Origin: a virus
Lineage: Duplodnaviria > Heunggongvirae > Uroviricota > Caudoviricetes
Direction: 5' to 3' (one strand)
Length of the DNA stretch: 21,083 nucleotides
IMG/VR virus record: IMGVR_UViG_2802429228_000007
Span: 1-21,083 of that record
The notes below the pieces were generated by a model. That model saw only the letters and a program-made list of their open reading frames with translations. It had not been told where the DNA came from and made no database searches. Below, piece after piece: positions 11,094 through 16,767 of the stretch (position 1 is the stretch's first letter; each line of letters starts with the position of its first letter). Both the position numbers and the translations under genes were made by a program.

Positions 11094-11441
11094 TTAACTC
11101 AGTGAAACAGTGGTTGAAACTGACGCACCGGTATCGGTACGCATCCCGGTAATATCGACATACATCTCGCCAGCGTCGCCGGCCTCAAAGCTGATGGATG
11201 TAAGCCTGATGCGCGGCTCCCACTTCTGGATAGCCGAATAGCACGCCACCATAATTTGCAGCCTGAGCGCCGGGTTTTGCGGCATATCAATCAGCGCCGA
11301 CAGAAGCGAGCCATATTCACGACGCATCACCCGCGAGCCGACCGGCGTCAGCAGAATATCGCGCATGCTCTGGCTGATATGCTCGGTATCGCTGATGCCA
11401 AGGCCGGTATTTCGGTTCATCCCCTGATAGCGCGCCGTCAT
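11094..11441 (-). CDS. W: Baseplate assembly protein gpW (gp25/GPW family)
   Basis: 115-aa ORF. Overlaps the V stop in an ATGA arrangement. Size and position match gpW. Confidence 0.9.
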   Translation of the reverse strand: MTARYQGMNRNTGLGISDTEHISQSMRDILLTPVGSRVMRREYGSLLSALIDMPQNPALRLQIMVACYSAIQKWEPRIRLTSISFEAGDAGEMYVDITGMRTDTGASVSTTVSLS

Positions 11442-12073
11442 AACGGTGCCCCCGTTTGCCCGCCGCTGTCGCCCGGGTGTTTATGGGTGTGGAGTACCTT
11501 GCCATTAGACGACAGTGACCCGCCGGTATGTTCGATATTGCCGCTCATCTTGCCGCCTTTCTGCACCTCAAGCGTCGCCGTCGTTAGCTTATTGGTGCAA
11601 ATCACCTCCGGGGTGTCGAGGGTGATACTGGTCGAGGCTTTCACCAGTACCAGCGGTACGGTTGCGGTGATGGACTCCGATGCCGTCACGTCGGCCGTTT
11701 TTATGCCGCTGACCGTCAGCGCGCCGGTTTCGGGCTCGTACTCAATGACCGCACCATCAGGGAAAGCCACATGCCACGCATCCGCCGAGGCAGACGGGGC
11801 GGGGTTATCGTCGGAGAAAATACCCGGCAGCACGAAAGCGGTATCAAGCTCGCCACCGATTGCCAGCAGCAGAACCTGCTCACCGACCGAGGGAGCCCAC
11901 CACGTCCGCGAACGACCGGCTCGGGTGGTCAGCCAGTTCAGCCAAGTGGTTTGCATCCCCCCGGTCTGGATACGACATAGCCCCTCCTTGAGGTCTACGT
12001 CGCTAACGATGCCGGTACGGATGAGATTTCGGATCGCGCGTGCGATTTCTTGCAAAGAATTTAGATTTTTCAT
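11438..12073 (-). CDS. V: Baseplate spike protein gpV
   Basis: 211-aa ORF, ATG at 12073. C-terminal HTHKHPGDSGGQTGAP motif is typical of gpV-type spikes. First gene of the V-W-J-I-H block. Confidence 0.9.
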   Translation of the reverse strand: MKNLNSLQEIARAIRNLIRTGIVSDVDLKEGLCRIQTGGMQTTWLNWLTTRAGRSRTWWAPSVGEQVLLLAIGGELDTAFVLPGIFSDDNPAPSASADAWHVAFPDGAVIEYEPETGALTVSGIKTADVTASESITATVPLVLVKASTSITLDTPEVICTNKLTTATLEVQKGGKMSGNIEHTGGSLSSNGKVLHTHKHPGDSGGQTGAPL

Positions 12074-12204
12074 ATGGGAAGGATGACGCCCGGCAAGATT
12101 AGTGGCAATCGAGATGGATTCTGTGAGGAATGAAACAACTTCTGAGAGGTCTACTCAACATCTATGAAATCTTGTGAGAATTAATTAGAATAGCCAAGTT
12201 GAAT

Positions 12205-12771
12205 ATGCAATTACCCTGGCTCACAGTAAAAAATGAAGGTGTTTGGCAAATGACTGAAAGAAAAAAAACCTTAGGCGATGATGAGGTTGTGCCTTATTTT
12301 AATAACGATTGTGAACAAATAAAATTCGAATTTGCTTATTTAATAGTTCTTTTTGTAATAGGTTGCATTCTCGCCTTTCTTTTCCAATTTGTTTTTGAGC
12401 TGTCATATAATAATAAAATATCTTTGTTTTCTATTCTTGGCGGCTTTTTTGGAGGGTGGGTGTATAATGCAAAATGGTTTTATAGAGTAACTGCTAGAGG
12501 GAAAAACAATCAGTATAATTTTCCTTGGGAATCCCATAAGTTCTACTGGAGGATTTTTATTCCGTTCTTAGCTGCTTTAGTGGCTTTTTGTTCTTATACG
12601 ATATTATCTCCGGATACGTTTGTATCCTCCATTAAAGGGCATGGTAAGACCAAAATTGCATTCTCGATTTGTTTTATATTAGGATATTTTTCAGACTTAG
12701 TTCTAAGCCGACTCGCATCTTGGGCTGAAAAATTGCTCCCTAAAAAACCAGGAGACAATAAACGTGAATAA
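12205..12771 (+). CDS. Predicted 4-TM inner-membrane protein, unknown function (cargo cassette gene 1)
   Basis: AT-rich ORF on the opposite strand to the flanking tail genes. Four hydrophobic segments (FAYLIVLFVIGCILAFLFQFVF, ISLFSILGGFFGGWVY, IFIPFLAALVAFCSYTIL, IAFSICFILGYFSDLVL) and a K/R-rich C-terminus. Start uncertain: TTG 12199, ATG 12205, or ATG 12250 preceded by an AAGGTG Shine-Dalgarno-like sequence. Stop overlaps the next gene's GTG start by 8 nt. Confidence 0.6.
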   Translation: MQLPWLTVKNEGVWQMTERKKTLGDDEVVPYFNNDCEQIKFEFAYLIVLFVIGCILAFLFQFVFELSYNNKISLFSILGGFFGGWVYNAKWFYRVTARGKNNQYNFPWESHKFYWRIFIPFLAALVAFCSYTILSPDTFVSSIKGHGKTKIAFSICFILGYFSDLVLSRLASWAEKLLPKKPGDNKRE

Positions 12772-13408
12772 TTCTTGTAATTCGTTCTGTGGAATATGCG
12801 ATGAAATAAATGGCATTAGCCTTATCAAAGGATACGATGAAATCGTAAATGACAAGAAAAATATCATTGCAGAAACAAATGATTTTCTAATTGTACCTAG
12901 TATTGGCCCGCTAAATAATTCGCATGTGATGCTGATTCCTAAGCGGCATATCAACTCCTTTGCTGCTCTTGATCGAGATACCCGGAGTAATGGCAAGGAG
13001 ATTCTGCGAGAACTTAATGAATTTATAATCCACCAATCTGGTAGATCTCTAATTTTCTTTGAAAGCGGAGCAGGTGAAAATATAGATCGTTCAGGAGGGT
13101 GCATTTCTCACGCTCATATACACTGTGTTTATTATACACAAGAGTTTGAAAATGCTCTAAATAAAGAAATTAACTTTAAGAAAATTGAAGGTGAGAATTT
13201 AAGTTTTGACATTAAAAATGGATATGTGTGGTATATGAGTAATAGTTATGATGAATTTTTATGCAACAAACCACTCTTACCATCTCAGTTCCTTAGATAT
13301 CTTTATTCTAATGCAAATTTGATACATGGCAATTGGAATTGGCGCAGAGATAACAACATCAGCGGTGTTCTAGAGGTTATTGATAATTACGCAGATTTCA
13401 AACTATAA
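12764..13408 (+). CDS. HIT-like (histidine triad) nucleotide hydrolase/transferase superfamily protein with a C-terminal extension of unknown function (cargo cassette gene 2)
   Basis: 214-aa ORF, GTG start 7 nt after an AGGAG Shine-Dalgarno. N-terminal CxxC (FCGICDE). HVMLIPKRHI segment resembles the Fhit/Hint H.L..P..H core. Histidine-triad motif HAHIHCV (H-x-H-x-H-x-x) preceded by SGGC. About 85 further C-terminal residues with no recognisable motif. AT-rich. Confidence 0.6.
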   Translation: MNNSCNSFCGICDEINGISLIKGYDEIVNDKKNIIAETNDFLIVPSIGPLNNSHVMLIPKRHINSFAALDRDTRSNGKEILRELNEFIIHQSGRSLIFFESGAGENIDRSGGCISHAHIHCVYYTQEFENALNKEINFKKIEGENLSFDIKNGYVWYMSNSYDEFLCNKPLLPSQFLRYLYSNANLIHGNWNWRRDNNISGVLEVIDNYADFKL

Positions 13409-13413
13409 AATCA

Positions 13414-13434
13414 AGGCTGGTGTTTATCCAGCCT
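13414..13434. terminator. Stem-loop between convergent HIT-like gene and gpS (probable terminator of the R-S late operon, possibly bidirectional)
   Basis: 7-bp perfect stem AGGCTGG (13414-13420) / CCAGCCT (13428-13434) with a 7-nt loop. On the minus strand it is followed by UGAUUUUAUAGU. It sits 5 nt after the HIT-like stop and 28 nt after the S stop. Confidence 0.5.
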
Positions 13435-13462
13435 CATCACAAAATAATATATTAGATCATAA

Positions 13463-13909
13463 TTAATCCAAAGCCCCAATTATTAACCGCTCAATAATTC
13501 TCATATCTATACTATTGAAACCGAGCAACGGGCGCGCCTCGTACTGCACATCCCGGCTGTTACGGTTTGGCCGGTCTTTGAGGCCGTACTGATGAACCCG
13601 CGCCATGCGCTGCACCTTGCCGGTAAACTCCACCACCGCCGCACTGTCGCTGCCTTTGGCTTTCATAAAGCGACTGGTGCGCAGTTTGGCGAACATTTCA
13701 CGTTTAATCCGACCTTTCTTGCTCCGCACCGGCTGGCGCTTTCGTGCCGCATACGGGGTGCCGTCGGGTGCCTGCTGGCGCTTGATACGCTGTTGCTGAC
13801 TGGTACGCAGCTTTTTCGCAATCTCAGCCGCCATTTGCCGACGTGCCGCCGGTGACAGGCTGGCAATCAGACCTGCAAGGCGTTCCTGCAGCGCGGTTAA
13901 TTCACTCAT
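13463..13909 (-). CDS. S: Tail completion protein gpS
   Basis: 148-aa basic ORF overlapping the R stop by 8 nt; conserved R-S pairing upstream of the baseplate block. Confidence 0.85.
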   Translation of the reverse strand: MSELTALQERLAGLIASLSPAARRQMAAEIAKKLRTSQQQRIKRQQAPDGTPYAARKRQPVRSKKGRIKREMFAKLRTSRFMKAKGSDSAAVVEFTGKVQRMARVHQYGLKDRPNRNSRDVQYEARPLLGFNSIDMRIIERLIIGALD

Positions 13910-14378
13910 CCCACTTACTCACCAGTTCGCCGTTAACGTACAGCTCGACCGGGCGCGTCACCGGCTCAGGCAGTGGCGGCTCAGGGGCATAGCTGACGTG
14001 CAGCGCGCCGTCGACCTCTTTGACGAGCGTGCGCTCGGTGAGCCTCAGGCTGATACTGATATCGAGCGAATCGTCGTTATTGATATCAATAATCCAGGTG
14101 AATCCTTTTTCCCGCCCGTCGTCGGTGGTCATAATGTCCGGCTGATGTTCACGCAGCCACGCCTGCACCGGCACGAATATCAAATCAAGGTCACCGGTGA
14201 AGTCGGTCACCACCACGTTAAGCACGTACACCTTTTCAAACGACAGCGAGCTCGCCAGTCGGGAATCGGTATGGCCGTTGTCGGCAAAAAGGCGCAGCAT
14301 ATCGGGATTATTTCGGAGCTGCGGCACGGCGTTAATCAGCGCTTTGCGCAGGCTTTTGTGCTTCTGCATCGAGTTCAT
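13902..14378 (-). CDS. R: Tail completion protein gpR
   Basis: 158-aa ORF immediately downstream of the spanin genes; position and size match gpR. Confidence 0.85.
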   Translation of the reverse strand: MNSMQKHKSLRKALINAVPQLRNNPDMLRLFADNGHTDSRLASSLSFEKVYVLNVVVTDFTGDLDLIFVPVQAWLREHQPDIMTTDDGREKGFTWIIDINNDDSLDISISLRLTERTLVKEVDGALHVSYAPEPPLPEPVTRPVELYVNGELVSKWDE

Positions 14379-14622
14379 CCTGACAGTGTTTGACGGTTTT
14401 AACCTGCAGCGCGCAGGCGGTCAGCGCGCCCTCAAGACGGCGGATATCTGCGCTCAGGTCACCATTGGTTTTCGGGTCACTTCCCGGCATCGGACAAAGG
14501 CTCACCCTCGGGCATCCGCTGACCACAATCACCGGCACTGGCGCAGGCGGTGCGGGTGTGCAGCCGACGCACAACATCAGGCAAAGCAGCGTTATACCAG
14601 CGGCGAAAGGCTTCATTTTCAT
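14332..14622 (-). CDS. lysC: o-spanin (Rz1-like outer-membrane lipoprotein), LysC equivalent
   Basis: 96-aa ORF starting inside lysB in another frame, with a GAGG Shine-Dalgarno 8 nt upstream of ATG 14622. Signal peptide with lipobox-like LCVGC followed by the proline-rich stretch TPAPPAPVPV, typical of Rz1/o-spanins. Extends past the lysB stop into R. Confidence 0.7.
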   Translation of the reverse strand: MKMKPFAAGITLLCLMLCVGCTPAPPAPVPVIVVSGCPRVSLCPMPGSDPKTNGDLSADIRRLEGALTACALQVKTVKHCQDELDAEAQKPAQSAD

Positions 14623-14890
14623 TAAGTAACCTCGTTATCGTCTGCTCACGGCGGCTGGCCTCTGCGCTGGCCTTTGCGAGCTGTTCGCGCAGTTCCACCT
14701 GCGCGGATTCATTACGTCGGGCAAGCTGACCGGCAACACTGAGCTGATTTTTCAGCATGCCAATCGTCGTCTTTTGTTCGCTTGCGACGCGGTTTGCCGT
14801 CTCAAAGGAGCGGGATAAATTGCCGTTCTCATGGCGCAACCACAGCAGCCCGAGCACGGCCAGCACCAGCAGCGTTATCAGGATTTTCAT
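14477..14890 (-). CDS. lysB: i-spanin (Rz-like), LysB equivalent
   Basis: ATG at 14890 (MKILITLLVLAVLGLLWL...): N-terminal TM helix followed by a coiled-coil-like periplasmic domain, 137 aa. In this sequence the reading frame is continuous upstream with the truncated gene A. Confidence 0.75.
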   Translation of the reverse strand: MKILITLLVLAVLGLLWLRHENGNLSRSFETANRVASEQKTTIGMLKNQLSVAGQLARRNESAQVELREQLAKASAEASRREQTITRLLNENEAFRRWYNAALPDVVRRLHTRTACASAGDCGQRMPEGEPLSDAGK

Positions 14891-16767
14891 GCCATCACCC
14901 CGCCAGCCGTGCGCCACACAGTGACCAGTTTGTGAACTCCGAGGGACGGCTTTGCCGTCCTGAAGGTCAACGGCCAAATCAACAGCATGCTTCGGAACAA
15001 TCTTCCACTGAGTGAGCCGGGTTAAAATCGGGCTACCTGCACCTATGGAGGAATCGTAGACCCCCTTAATACATACCGTTTCCTCACCGTACTGATTAAG
15101 CTCGGTACGTGGTTCATACAGTGTGCGCACCTGTAAATCATCGCGACGGACAAACGGTCCACCCTGCGCATTAACATAACCAGCCCAGTCACCAGCGTCG
15201 GCGGCATCATGGACGGCGGCAAACTCAACGCTCAGTCCGTGCGCGGTTTCGGTATCAGCGAGGCGACGCAACTCACGGTAAACCGTCACCGGCGCACCAC
15301 CGATAAACTGAAACTGACGGATGTGCCAGCGCGAAGCCCATGCTGAAACGGCGGGGGCTGTCTCTTTCAGCAGTTCACCGCTTTCATCATCGGTTTCACC
15401 ATCGAGAGCATAACCGTCGATATTTTTTGATATGTATTTAGCAACATAGCCGGTTGCGCTGCCTTTCTCCGGGTCAATGGACTCGGCGTGGAAACGTGCT
15501 TTTTTTGCCTTATCGCTTTTCAGTTCGCGGCGGTCTTCTTTCCACGCGTATTTACGGACGATGGAGCGAACATATTCAACATCTTCCGGCAGCATGAACA
15601 TCAGCATGTGCCAGTGTGGAGTACCGTCGTGATGGGGCTCGGCGACACGAATACCGAAAATACGGACATCTTCCCGATGCAGTTTGGCACGGATACGCGC
15701 CCAGATATCAGTTAGATAGTTTTGCGTGTCAGCCGGGCTGGCACCGCTCCATTTGCTGTTACGGTAACCGGCTTTAGTCGTGGCGTGATATTTCGACGGC
15801 GCGGTCAGAGTGTAAAACTCACCGACATAACCGAGCTCATTACAGATGTTTTCAAACCCACGAATGCGAGTCATGAGCTCACAGCGGCGAATCGCAGGGT
15901 TAGCAACTGAGCCATCATATTTTTCAATCAGGCTGATACGGTTGCCGTCTTCGTCTTCGAGATCCAGACCTTTGAGAAATTCACGAGTTCGGCGCTTTTG
16001 TTCACGCCAGTCAGTCACGCAGTTTTTACTCGCATAGGTGTTTTTTTTCTTGCTGACGTTGCCGACTGCAATTTGCAGGTGTTCGCGCCACGTAGCTGCA
16101 ACCCGGCGCAAACGACCACGCCACCACCCATCGTTAAACATCTTGGCGATAGCCGGTGCGATTTCATCCGCGCCAACATATTTTTTGCAACCCGATCCCA
16201 ATGGGGGGGGATAACGTTGAACTGGAGGGAAATAAAGCCAGCACGATTATACCAGGTGTACAGCGTTTTAAGCTCGCCGAATCCGTGGTCATTAATGTTG
16301 GCAAGTTCACCACGAATGAAATTAGCAATATCGGCGGCCAACAGGTCAACATCAGCGCGCGACATATCCGGGAGGCGGTTATATCGGGCGACCATATTAA
16401 CCATGCGTGACGCCAGATATTGCATAAGCTGGGTATCAAAATGACTTCCAAAAACAGAGGTTGATACCTTGCTGTTGATACCCGCGCATTCGTATTTTTT
16501 TGCGACCAATTCAAGACGCGGCAATGCCTTTTTGCAGAAGCTGATCAAAAAGGCATTGGCTCGTTGAATGCCCTGATTTTGCTCCAGCACTGCCGCAGTG
16601 CGATAAACATCTAACCGCACGCAGTCGGGCTGGAGAGAAAGCACCTTTTTAGCATGCAGCATCGCCGCGAACATACGGTCGCGGCGATGCTGTTGCTTAT
16701 AAGTAAGGTATGGGCTGGCTATAGCCGATCGTGGAGCATTCCACGGATAAGCGAATTGAACAGCCAA
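14891..16767 (-). pseudogene. A: Replication initiator gpA (rolling-circle endonuclease), frameshifted and 3'-truncated, running in frame into lysB
   Basis: N-terminal part in the 16767..16015 frame (TTG start after a GGGGGG Shine-Dalgarno; YPWNAPRS, NRLPDM). The remainder is in the 16201..14891 frame with hallmark motifs IAKMFNDGWW, FYTLTAPSKYH, EPHHDGTPHWHMLMF and YVAKYISKNIDGYALDG. The frames switch at a C8 run (plus-strand G8 at 16203-16210). There is no stop between the A-like sequence and the lysB ATG. Confidence 0.8.

What the first reader, a model, noticed from the sequence alone, without database searches (positions are those of the whole stretch)
12074..13462. AT-rich two-gene cargo operon (4-TM membrane protein + HIT-like hydrolase) inserted between gpS and gpV: candidate undescribed defence or exclusion module
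Seen in sequence: a strongly AT-rich block sits between the R-S terminator hairpin and the gpV start, on the opposite strand to the structural genes. It encodes a 4-helix membrane protein whose stop overlaps by 8 nt the GTG start of a protein with an N-terminal CxxC and a clean histidine-triad motif (HAHIHCV), plus an uncharacterised C-terminal extension of about 85 aa. Established knowledge: P2-like prophages carry nonessential cargo at a few fixed slots (P2 orf30 lies between S and V), and such slots often hold anti-phage or lysogenic-conversion genes. HIT enzymes hydrolyse or transfer nucleotide phosphoramidate/phosphoanhydride bonds (Hint, Fhit, GalT, DcpS). Inference: an enzyme acting on a nucleotide-type substrate paired with a small membrane protein fits the sensor/effector or toxin/immunity logic of accessory defence cassettes. 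I do not recognise this pair as any named system.
Basis: partly seen in the sequence, partly recalled or inferred. Interest (0 to 1): 0.85.

Follow-up and report, generated by a model that had tools for sequence, protein, structure and literature searches.

The report
Membrane protein plus HIT enzyme prophage cargo
A defective P2-like E. coli prophage carries a foreign two-gene cassette (a small four-helix membrane protein plus a nucleotide-cleaving enzyme shaped like a eukaryotic splicing factor) that travels as a unit between bacteria and is a plausible but untested new anti-phage defence system.

Summary
Window 12074-13462 is an AT-rich block (GC 0.35; rest of window 0.52) between gpV and gpS. 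On the opposite strand it encodes a 173-aa four-helix membrane protein (12250-12771). Its stop overlaps by 8 nt the GTG start of a 214-aa HIT protein (12764-13408).

New findings:
- The two genes are adjacent in all 10 contexts examined, from Gamma-, Beta- and Alphaproteobacteria. They are usually translationally coupled, always lower in GC than their flanks, and under purifying selection.
- The S-V slot is truly variable in E. coli: empty, pentapeptide-repeat, PD-T4-7-like, unknown, or this pair (8 of 5426 genomes).
- Elsewhere the pair sits in the classical P2 gpA-portal defence hotspot (Pantoea), next to a Wadjet-like operon (Halomonas), in a filamentous prophage (Vibrio), and as isolated islets.
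- Neither protein passes any PADLOC model. No paper in the library describes the pair.

Best reading: a mobile enzyme-plus-membrane-effector defence or exclusion module (confidence about 0.45). Rivals are nucleotide-antibiotic resistance, addiction, envelope modification and counter-defence. Function is untested.

The parts
12141..13411 (+). Foreign AT-rich cargo cassette in the gpS-gpV inter-operon slot.
   Evidence: GC is 0.347 against 0.52 for the rest of the window. The cassette is 99.5-99.7% identical in 8 of 5426 complete E. coli genomes, always between V and S of a P2-like prophage. Other relatives have an empty slot or a different gene there.
12164..12191 (+). Candidate sigma-70 promoter of the cassette (ATGAAA-16-TAGAAT), divergent from pV.
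   Evidence: Consensus scan, 9 of 12 matches. The evidence is weak: the number of such sites in the region is not above the shuffled expectation.
12250..12771 (+). Gene 1: a 173-aa inner-membrane protein with four helices and an invariant basic/aromatic loop (K75-R101). Upstream alternative starts are at 12199 (TTG) and 12205 (ATG).
   Evidence: ORF and RefSeq start. AF2 model with pLDDT 78.8 and helices 20-48, 53-81, 95-119 and 133-162. Invariant columns in 49 homologues. Hydropathy and charge distribution. Matches phrog_22917, unknown function. No Pfam or PADLOC match.
12764..12771 (+). 8-nt overlap (GTGAATAA) of the gene 1 stop with the gene 2 GTG start, indicating translational coupling.
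   Evidence: Sequence. An overlap of 8-17 nt was seen in 7 of the 8 contexts with called genes; the eighth has a 2-nt gap.
12764..13408 (+). Gene 2: a 214-aa cytoplasmic two-lobed HIT protein of the CwfJ/CWF19 type. It has C9xxC12, H54, H62, H116-x-H118-x-H120, R178 and W191-N-W193-R-R.
13412..13436 (-). Rho-independent terminator of the late O operon (after gpS). It forms the right border of the slot and may also stop cassette transcription.
   Evidence: 9-bp stem with 5 G-C pairs, followed by ATTTTATAGT on the - strand. P2 has an annotated terminator at the same position.
12122..12138 (-). Probable pV late-promoter activator (Ogr/B-type) binding dyad TTGT-N10-ACA, followed by GAATCCA. It forms the left border of the slot.
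   Evidence: Sequence compared with the annotated P2 pV activator site TTGT-N11-ACAAATGAATCCA. The centre lies about 56 nt from the V start in both. Inferred by similarity only.
11438..12073 (-). gpV baseplate spike gene (backbone, left flank).
   Evidence: ORF. RefSeq names the 99.8% identical region 'phage baseplate assembly protein V'.
13463..13909 (-). gpS tail-completion / virion morphogenesis gene (backbone, right flank).
   Evidence: ORF. RefSeq names it 'phage virion morphogenesis protein'. The upstream gene is gpR by Pfam.

Best explanation
The block is a self-contained, horizontally mobile two-gene accessory module. It rides as a 'moron' in the inter-operon gap between the P2 late O operon (ending with gpS and its terminator) and the pV promoter. 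It is most likely transcribed from its own promoter in the lysogen.

Gene 1 makes a small inner-membrane protein. Its N-terminus, C-terminus and the invariant basic/aromatic loop between helices 2 and 3 are predicted to face the cytoplasm. Gene 2 is translationally coupled to gene 1 and makes a cytoplasmic CwfJ/CWF19-type two-lobed HIT enzyme with an intact His triad. Such an enzyme attacks a nucleoside-5'-phosphoryl-X bond through a covalent nucleotidyl-His118 intermediate.

My committed reading is an anti-phage defence or exclusion system of the 'enzyme plus membrane effector' kind. The faster-evolving HIT protein would be the sensor or switch. It would recognise and process an infection-specific nucleotidylated molecule, such as a capped, adenylylated or 2'-5'-branched nucleic-acid end, or a nucleotide alarmone or second messenger. 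The more conserved membrane protein would be the effector, and its cytoplasmic loop would dock the HIT protein or its product. Activation would collapse membrane integrity or block DNA entry, aborting the infection.

Shown (computationally): gene anatomy, coupling, folds, conserved residues, obligate pairing, mobility, slot variability, and absence from defence catalogues.

Inferred: expression in the lysogen, catalysis, the physical contact between the two proteins, which partner is sensor and which effector, the trigger, and the phenotype.
For: Pairing and selection:
- In all 10 distinct contexts holding a HIT homologue of at least 40% identity, the membrane gene lies immediately upstream on the same strand. 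These contexts are E. coli, Enterobacter, Pantoea, Vibrio, Halomonas, Pseudomonas, Burkholderia, Herbaspirillum, Thalassospira and Rhodoferax.
- The two genes overlap by 8-17 nt in 7 of the 8 contexts with gene calls.
- A distant membrane homologue (hhalign probability 85%, E 6e-6) shares an operon with a distant HIT homologue in an actinobacterial MAG.
- dN is 0.08-0.28 with saturated dS.

Mobility:
- Pair GC is 0.34-0.49 against 0.42-0.64 in the flanks, in every host.
- In Thalassospira the pair lies between a TetR gene and a 49-aa TetR_C fragment.
- It is rare and patchy: 8 of 5426 E. coli genomes, and only 353 membrane-family representatives among 1.84 billion.

Defence-type locations:
- The P2 S-V slot alternates between empty (24), a pentapeptide-repeat protein (16), a PD-T4-7-like protein (6; E 4.8e-9), other unknowns (6) and this pair (7 of the 60 listed; 8 of all 70 related prophages).
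- In Pantoea P2/186-like phages the same pair sits between gpA and the portal gene. That is the old/tin hotspot shown to be a reservoir of defence systems (PMC9122126).
- In Halomonas it directly follows a Wadjet/Mks-like operon.
- In Vibrio it is cargo of a filamentous prophage.
- It is kept intact in two independently decayed P2 remnants (this window; Enterobacter sp. FB). This matches the report that defective P2 elements retain conserved defence genes (10.64898/2026.02.27.708500).

Enzyme and architecture:
- The triad, Zn-type Cys pair and C-lobe Arg/Trp are invariant.
- The membrane protein is more conserved than the HIT protein in every comparison (87/75, 77/66, 55/45%), as expected for an effector versus a sensor.
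- Precedents exist: a HAD-like hydrolase plus TM protein from P4 protects against T7 (PMC9122126), and a HIT protein (ThsC) accompanies 2.4% of Thoeris systems (PMC8565338).
Against: - No experiment has been done.
- Neither window protein matches any of 5027 PADLOC models. Across the family, only 7 of 46 HIT homologues hit ThsC weakly (best E 0.0044), which is superfamily-level similarity.
- The pair is absent from the deposited phage genomes searched.
- Four of the nine annotated contexts (Pseudomonas, Burkholderia, Thalassospira, Rhodoferax) have only housekeeping or metabolic neighbours and no defence genes.
- Distant relatives of the HIT protein in CPR bacteria and DPANN archaea sit in housekeeping operons next to NUDIX genes, so the fold itself is not defence-specific.
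- P2 slots also carry non-defence cargo. The Z/fun slot of this same window holds an acyltransferase.
- The membrane protein's fold search gave only generic helical bundles.
- The promoter call is weak.
- The sensor/effector assignment and the substrate are pure inference.
Confidence: 0.45

Rival explanations
1. Resistance or immunity cassette against toxic nucleotide analogues, such as peptide-nucleotide antibiotics of the microcin C type. The HIT enzyme would hydrolyse the phosphoramidate or acyl-nucleotide warhead. The membrane protein would export it or block its uptake. The lysogen would gain an edge in bacterial competition.
For: [quoted passage not shown] The window protein has an intact HIT triad. 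The pair occurs as isolated islets in free-living Proteobacteria without phage or defence neighbours. It is accessory and horizontally transferred.
Confidence: 0.15
2. Selfish addiction (toxin-antitoxin-like) module without a dedicated anti-phage role. The membrane protein would be a membrane-damaging toxin and the HIT protein would neutralise or regulate it. This would stabilise the prophage or islet in the genome.
For: It is a compact two-gene coupled operon. It is scattered in unrelated loci with an HGT signature. It persists in decayed prophages. Small multi-helix membrane proteins are common toxins (general knowledge).
Against: Both proteins are large for type II/V TA pairs. The supposed antitoxin has an invariant catalytic site, which suggests an enzymatic rather than a stoichiometric role. 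The gene order (putative toxin first) is atypical. No similarity to known TA families was found in Pfam, NCBIfam or PADLOC. Many TA-like modules are in any case abortive-infection defences, so this rival overlaps the main reading.
Confidence: 0.12
3. Lysogenic-conversion or envelope-modifying pair. The HIT enzyme would act on a lipid-linked or sugar-linked nucleotide, as CDP-diacylglycerol pyrophosphatase or GalT-type transferases do. The membrane partner would hold it at the membrane, changing the surface or lipid composition.
Against: The similarity to Cdh and GalT is much weaker than to CWF19-type modules, which bind nucleic acid (PMC6461851). No glycosyltransferase, flippase or lipid-metabolism genes are linked in any context.
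Confidence: 0.08
4. Phage counter-defence. The HIT enzyme would destroy host immune nucleotide signals (cyclic oligonucleotides or ADPR-derived messengers) to protect the P2-like phage.
For: HIT enzymes cleave nucleotide pyrophosphate and phosphoramidate bonds. A HIT protein is linked to Thoeris signalling systems (PMC8565338). The pair is carried by phages.
Against: It is oriented against the late operons with its own putative promoter, not within early lytic genes. It is obligatorily paired with a membrane protein. It is present in chromosomal islets with no phage genes and is retained in dead prophages. It is absent from the sequenced phage genomes searched. Very few anti-defence genes are found in P2 elements (10.64898/2026.02.27.708500).
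Confidence: 0.05
5. Ordinary nucleotide-housekeeping enzyme (Ap4A or dinucleoside-polyphosphate hydrolase or phosphorylase) that happens to lie in a prophage.
For: Source annotations call relatives 'Ap4A HIT family hydrolase' or 'ATP adenylyltransferase'. Distant relatives sit next to NUDIX genes in housekeeping operons of CPR and DPANN genomes.
Against: It is rare, patchy, AT-rich and mobile. It is always coupled to a dedicated membrane protein. It occupies variable prophage slots. The source names are automatic and untested.
Confidence: 0.03

Closest known systems
Eukaryotic CWF19L1/CWF19L2/Cwf19/Drn1 C-terminal CwfJ module (spliceosome disassembly and lariat turnover factors)
   Different: It is a stand-alone bacterial protein with no metallophosphoesterase-like or RNA-binding N-terminal domain and no spliceosome. 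No CwfJ_C_2 Pfam hit was found in any of 46 members. A full HxHxH triad is invariant here. It is paired with a membrane protein. Sequence identity is only 12-20%.
One-domain HIT hydrolases and phosphorylases (Hint, Fhit, Rv2613c Ap4A phosphorylase, MccH)
   Different: Those proteins are homodimers of about 110-150 aa. This one carries its own second lobe of about 85 aa with invariant GYxW, NxPxLPSQFLRYxY and WNWRR motifs. They have no obligatory membrane partner.
HAD-like hydrolase + transmembrane protein system of P4 satellites (Rousset et al. 2022; anti-T7)
   Same: A two-gene cassette of a small phosphoesterase-type enzyme plus a small membrane protein, carried in a P2/P4-family hotspot (PMC9122126).
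   Different: The enzyme fold is unrelated (HAD, not HIT). There is no PADLOC hit. The element and slot also differ.
P2 orf30 and the other S-V slot cargo (pentapeptide-repeat protein, PD-T4-7-like protein)
   Same: Same position, between the O-operon terminator and the pV activator site. The cargo is nonessential and usually on the opposite strand.
   Different: The sequences are unrelated. This is a two-gene operon rather than a single gene.
Thoeris type II accessory HIT protein ThsC
   Same: A HIT-family protein embedded in an anti-phage system whose effector is a membrane protein (PMC8565338).
   Different: Only 7 of 46 family members hit the ThsC model, weakly (best E 0.0044), and the window protein does not. 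No TIR gene neighbours the proteobacterial pairs.

Membership tests
HIT superfamily | HxHxHxx histidine-triad motif | tested here: met
   H116-A-H118-I-H120-C-V. H116, A117, H118 and H120 are invariant and I119 nearly invariant in 46 homologues.
HIT superfamily | Sequence match above the curated Pfam thresholds | tested here: met
   HIT 23.4 bits (cut-off 21.5), DcpS_C 28.5 (24), CwfJ_C_1 28.4 (21). 46 of 46 homologues match. The profile hits solved HIT proteins.
HIT superfamily | Alpha+beta HIT fold | tested here: met
HIT superfamily | Nucleotide hydrolase or transferase activity through a nucleotidyl-His intermediate | not testable with these tools
   Needs biochemistry.
CwfJ/CWF19/Drn1 C-terminal module | CwfJ_C_1 domain | tested here: met
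   E 1.6e-6, above the gathering score. All 46 homologues match.
CwfJ/CWF19/Drn1 C-terminal module | CwfJ_C_2 domain detectable by sequence | tested here: not met
   No PF04676 hit at E up to 1 in any of 46 members. The second lobe corresponds only structurally.
CwfJ/CWF19/Drn1 C-terminal module | Two-lobed structure superposable over both lobes | tested here: met
CwfJ/CWF19/Drn1 C-terminal module | Conserved Cys/His/Arg/Trp set required for Drn1 function | tested here: inconclusive
   The pattern and spacing match (C-x2-C, H-x7-H, H-x-H, R-x14-W) between the PMC4105757 numbering. No residue-level alignment to Drn1 was made.
CwfJ/CWF19/Drn1 C-terminal module | Association with the spliceosome, Dbr1 or lariat RNA | tested here: not met
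   This is a bacterial stand-alone protein beside a membrane protein. Any nucleic-acid substrate is untested.
Catalogued anti-phage defence systems (PADLOC-DB v2.0.0) | Match to a defence-protein HMM | tested here: not met
   No hit for either window protein. Across families, only weak ThsC hits (7 of 46) and nothing meaningful for the membrane protein.
Catalogued anti-phage defence systems | Enrichment next to known defence genes or in defence hotspots | tested here: inconclusive
   Five of nine annotated contexts are prophage cargo slots or defence-adjacent. Four are housekeeping neighbourhoods. No statistical defence score was computed.
Catalogued anti-phage defence systems | Experimental protection against phage | not testable with these tools
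   No report was found in the library.
P2-type S-V (orf30) slot cargo | Lies between the O-operon terminator after gpS and the pV activator site before gpV | tested here: met
   Terminator at 13412-13436. pV-site homologue at about 12122-12138. P2 annotation.
P2-type S-V (orf30) slot cargo | Variable occupancy among otherwise similar prophages | tested here: met
   Of 60 listed relatives: 24 empty, 16 pentapeptide-repeat, 9 single unknown genes (6 of them PD-T4-7-like), 3 with two unknown genes, 7 with this pair, 1 partial.
HAD-hydrolase + TM system (Rousset 2022) | HAD-fold hydrolase | tested here: not met
   The fold is HIT. No PADLOC hit.
MccH-type resistance HIT | One-domain HIT in, or acting against, mcc-type clusters; phosphoramidase on aspartamide-adenylate | not tested
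   No MccH sequence was available for comparison. No mcc genes were seen nearby. Activity is untestable here.

The most novel reading that the evidence does not exclude
The pair is a new family of anti-phage system. Its sensor would be the first functional prokaryotic CwfJ/Drn1-type HIT enzyme. Like its spliceosomal relatives, which clamp the lariat junction, it would recognise a 5'-nucleotidyl linkage on nucleic acid. Candidate linkages are a 2'-5' branch, a 5'-adenylylated or capped end, or a protein-primed end, made by an infecting phage. Unlike those relatives it would be catalytically active, and it would gate a novel four-helix membrane effector. This would also give a bacterial, enzymatically tractable model for the unexplained biochemical role of CWF19/Drn1 in eukaryotes.
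Probability: 0.12. Interest if true: 0.85.

Novelty: new variant of a known kind. Interest (0 to 1): 0.6.

Why it matters
If the cassette protects against phage, it adds a system type built on an enzyme fold (HIT) that has no validated stand-alone role in bacterial immunity. It would also add a membrane protein family with no known relatives. The neglected S-V gap of P2-like phages would then count as a further defence slot beside old/tin and Z/fun.

Whatever the phenotype, the protein is a compact bacterial version of the CWF19/Drn1 CwfJ module with a complete catalytic triad. The biochemical function of that module in spliceosome disassembly is still called mysterious (PMC6461851), so a simple bacterial homologue with a selectable phenotype could make it testable.

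If the cassette instead proves to be nucleotide-antibiotic resistance, it would be a phage-borne resistance determinant present in clinical and avian-pathogenic E. coli.

Tried and rejected
- PADLOC on both window proteins and on all 46 and 49 family members: nothing for either window protein, and only weak ThsC HIT hits in 7 of 46 relatives.
- INPHARED phage genomes by DNA and by protein: no match.
- Plasmids by protein: one distant Rhizobium hit at 26% identity.
- NCBIfam: only sub-threshold noise.
- Foldseek against afdb50 was unavailable.
- Looked for fusions of the membrane domain to informative domains among 150 representatives. The longer proteins have no Pfam domain.
- The genome-contig scan returned only 4 loci because the peptide patterns were strict, so it cannot be used for prevalence.
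- Rfam scan of the cassette and its leader for a riboswitch: none. Repeat search for operators: nothing convincing.
- Literature searches for HIT with phage defence, abortive infection or transmembrane partners, plus the DefensePredictor and Rousset supplements: no description of this pair.
- Considered the Rousset 'hydrolase + TM' system as identical. Rejected: that enzyme is HAD-like.
- Considered that the CxxC marks a special redox or Zn-finger domain. Rejected: it is the usual HIT/CwfJ Cys pair.
- dN/dS ratios could be computed for only one pair because dS is saturated.
Full report
**1. Observation**

- GC in 300-nt windows drops from 0.57-0.64 in the flanking late genes to 0.31-0.39 between about 12100 and 13450. 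The block as a whole is 0.347 GC against 0.52 for the rest of the window.
- gpV (11438-12073), gpS (13463-13909) and gpR (13902-14378) lie on the minus strand.
- Two plus-strand ORFs fill the gap. One is a membrane protein (12199 TTG, or 12250 ATG, to 12771). The other is a 214-aa protein starting at GTG 12764.
- The first ORF stops at TAA 12769-12771, so the two overlap by 8 nt. I take ATG 12250 as the first start. It follows an AAGGTG Shine-Dalgarno-like sequence and is the RefSeq start in identical E. coli loci.
- A stem-loop at 13412-13436 with a T-run on the minus strand lies just after gpS.
- The GenBank record of phage P2 annotates the same layout: gpS, the O-operon terminator, nonessential orf30 on the opposite strand, the pV activator-binding site, then gpV.
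- The window has a close counterpart of the P2 pV site: TTGT-N10-ACAGAATCCA at about 12122-12138, against P2's TTGT-N11-ACAAATGAATCCA. Both centre about 56 nt from the V start. The foreign DNA proper is therefore about 12141-13411.

**2. Are they genes, and are they a unit?**

Both proteins have many homologues: 89 and 120 clusters at 90% identity.
- I examined 10 distinct genomic contexts holding a HIT homologue of at least 40% identity: E. coli, Enterobacter, Pantoea, Vibrio, Halomonas, Pseudomonas, Burkholderia, Herbaspirillum, Thalassospira and Rhodoferax. In every one the membrane gene lies immediately upstream on the same strand.
- In 7 of the 8 contexts with called genes the two reading frames overlap by 8-17 nt.
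- The membrane protein is always the more conserved partner: 87 vs 75%, 77 vs 66%, and about 55 vs 45%.
- Between enterobacterial copies dN is 0.08-0.28 while dS is saturated. The one computable ratio is 0.04.
- The exact window proteins occur on hundreds of E. coli contigs, named only 'hypothetical' or 'HIT family protein'. They correspond to two PHROG families of unknown function.

**3. The HIT protein**
- It passes the Pfam thresholds for CwfJ_C_1, DcpS_C and HIT, as do all 46 aligned homologues.
- A profile of the family finds solved HIT proteins.
- The AF2 model is confident (pLDDT 89.6).
No CwfJ_C_2 Pfam match is detectable by sequence.
- The invariant residues of the bacterial family are C9, C12, H54, H62, H116, H118, H120, R178 and W191/W193. 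They reproduce, with nearly identical spacing, the residues that Garrey et al. found conserved or essential in yeast Drn1: C269, C272, H311, H319, H366, H368, R459, W474 (PMC4105757).
[quoted passage not shown] That junction is a guanosine 5'-phosphate esterified to a 2'-OH, which formally is the 'NMP-X' type of linkage that HIT enzymes act on. This last step is my inference.
- The bacterial proteins keep the complete HxHxH triad, so catalysis is likely.

**4. The membrane protein**
- It has no Pfam, NCBIfam or PADLOC family.
- AF2 predicts four long helices (pLDDT 78.8).
- The most conserved stretch of either protein is the segment after helix 2: GGFxGGWxxxxKWFYRVTARGKxxQxxxxWxxHKFYWRxxxPF. 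It carries 6 Lys/Arg residues, so by the positive-inside rule it faces the cytoplasm, as do both termini (inference).
- Invariant E27 and D149 lie at or within helices 1 and 4.
- An exhaustive profile search finds just 353 representatives among 1.84 billion (178 at E of 1e-10 or better). None is fused to a recognisable domain.
- A distant member (hhalign probability 85%, E 6e-6) precedes an AIR-synthase-like gene and a distant HIT homologue in an actinobacterial MAG. The association is therefore old.

**5. Where the pair lives**

In E. coli:
- It occurs in 8 of 5426 complete genomes, always at 99.5% identity or more, in the S-V slot of a P2/186-like prophage.
- Among 70 genomes with closely related V and S genes, 60 were listed. 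The slot is empty in 24. It holds a pentapeptide-repeat protein in 16, a 287-aa protein resembling the validated defence protein PD-T4-7 (E 4.8e-9) in 6, other unknown genes in 6, and this pair in 7. One listing was partial.
- The slot is thus a real exchange point and holds at least one defence-like alternative.

In other hosts:
- Pantoea P2/186-like phages carry the same pair between gpA and the portal gene. That is the old/tin hotspot shown to be a reservoir of anti-phage systems (PMC9122126).
- In Halomonas it directly follows a Wadjet/Mks-like operon.
- In Vibrio it is cargo of a filamentous prophage, beside an ADP-ribosyl-toxin-like gene.
- In Enterobacter sp. FB it survives in a heavily decayed P2 remnant that also holds an AAA_15/21 ATPase plus HNH pair.
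- In Pseudomonas, Burkholderia, Thalassospira and Rhodoferax it is an isolated islet among metabolic genes. In Thalassospira it lies between a TetR gene and a 49-aa TetR_C fragment.
- In all eight hosts measured the pair is lower in GC than its flanks: 0.34 vs 0.60 in Halomonas, 0.41 vs 0.63 in Rhodoferax.

Deep relatives:
- More distant HIT relatives (about 25% identity) in CPR bacteria and DPANN archaea sit in housekeeping operons, twice beside NUDIX genes.
- A Bacteroidetes MAG places one between SLATT and SLOG genes and a TIR-NACHT protein, together with pyruvate-kinase-like and AIR-synthase-like genes.
- The fold is therefore not defence-specific, but it has been recruited into conflict-type neighbourhoods more than once.

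**6. What it most likely does**

The data show a self-sufficient, mobile, selected two-gene module that prophages place in cargo slots and that hosts keep when the prophage decays. The window's own prophage has lost its head and lysis genes (see section 9).

I commit to an anti-phage defence or exclusion function of the 'cytoplasmic enzyme plus membrane effector' kind, at confidence about 0.45.
- The faster-evolving HIT enzyme would be the infection sensor or switch. It would act on a nucleotidylated molecule.
- The slower-evolving membrane protein would be the effector. Its invariant cytoplasmic loop would receive the HIT protein or its product.
- Precedents for the logic are the HAD-like hydrolase plus TM system of P4 (PMC9122126) and the HIT protein ThsC found in 2.4% of Thoeris systems (PMC8565338).
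- The substrate, the trigger, the direction of signalling and the phenotype are all inferred.

**7. Rivals**
- Resistance to toxic nucleotide analogues. HIT hydrolases such as MccH inactivate processed microcin C (10.1101/2020.03.04.977132). Against this: no mcc-type neighbours, a different HIT architecture, and an obligatory partner with no transporter similarity.
- A purely selfish addiction module.
- Envelope or lipid modification. Cdh and GalT are weak structural neighbours.
- Phage counter-defence. This is disfavoured by the orientation, by the chromosomal islets and by retention in dead prophages.
- Housekeeping Ap4A metabolism. This is disfavoured by rarity, mobility and the pairing.

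**8. Novelty**
- Neither window protein matches any of 5027 PADLOC models. Family-wide, only weak ThsC hits appear.
- The pair is absent from the deposited phage genomes searched.
- Ten full-text searches and two supplement searches found no description of the pair.
- Published surveys of P2 hotspots concentrate on the gpA-portal and Z/fun loci. They mention hotspots 'within the late genes' only in passing (PMC9122126; 10.1101/2024.10.15.618418; 10.64898/2026.02.27.708500).
- I rate it a new variant of a known kind: prophage-borne two-gene accessory or defence cassettes with a membrane component. Both protein families are new to that field, and the link to the eukaryotic CWF19/Drn1 module was unexpected.
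- Interest is 0.6. This is a well-supported candidate with a distinctive enzyme, but it has no phenotype and several live rivals.

**9. Other things seen in the window**
- The prophage is defective. ORF 14477-16201 fuses gpA (Phage_GPA, residues 6-264) to a LysB-like C-terminus.
- The junction is near 14934. No complete E. coli genome in the collection carries it.
- The Z/fun slot (6749-7900) holds an Acyl_transf_3 acyltransferase.

Noticed in passing
window 14477-16201 (- strand); junction near 14934: One long ORF fuses the replication protein gpA (Pfam Phage_GPA, residues 6-264) to a LysB/Rz-like C-terminus. The whole head, packaging, holin and endolysin region of the P2-like prophage (about 13 kb in intact relatives) has therefore been deleted. 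The prophage keeps its tail genes, regulators, integrase and cargo. No complete E. coli genome in the collection covers the junction.
   Followed up: partly
window 6749-7900 (+ strand): The Z/fun cargo slot, between the tail-fibre and tail-sheath genes, holds a 383-aa Acyl_transf_3 family acyltransferase (E 1.5e-35). It is a likely O-antigen or surface-modifying lysogenic-conversion gene. It has no PADLOC hit.
   Followed up: partly
L024 843-1706, E. coli Ecol_545 and at least five other genomes (S-V slot): An alternative occupant of the same S-V slot is a 287-aa protein resembling the validated defence protein PD-T4-7 (PADLOC E 4.8e-9). The most common occupant (16 of the 60 listed prophages) is a 278-aa pentapeptide-repeat protein.
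   Followed up: partly
L014 8739-15684 (Bacteroidetes MAG); L015; L016: Distant (23-26% identity) two-lobed HIT homologues sit in recurring operons with a pyruvate-kinase-like barrel protein and/or an AIR-synthase (PurM/ThiL)-like protein. In L014 these are flanked by SLATT_1/DUF4231 and SLOG genes, a TIR-NACHT protein and a MORC-like HATPase. This may be a separate, undescribed nucleotide-centred conflict system.
   Followed up: partly
L012 3023-4754 (Enterobacter sp. FB P2 remnant): An AAA_15/AAA_21 ATPase (392 aa) followed by a small protein with a faint HNH_5 hit lies next to ogr in a decayed P2 remnant that also keeps the membrane+HIT pair. By domain content it is Septu-like. It was not checked against PADLOC.
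   Followed up: no
L025 6632-8845 (Thalassospira): The pair is bracketed by a 224-aa TetR gene and a 49-aa TetR_C_3 fragment. This suggests insertion into, or duplication of, a TetR gene end. The insertion junctions were not analysed.
   Followed up: no
L017 7001-8068 and L018 7001-8402 (CPR-type bacteria): In small-genome bacteria the distant HIT relative is followed directly by a NUDIX hydrolase gene, in housekeeping neighbourhoods. This hints that the ancestral role of the two-lobed HIT lies in dinucleotide or capped-nucleotide metabolism.
   Followed up: no
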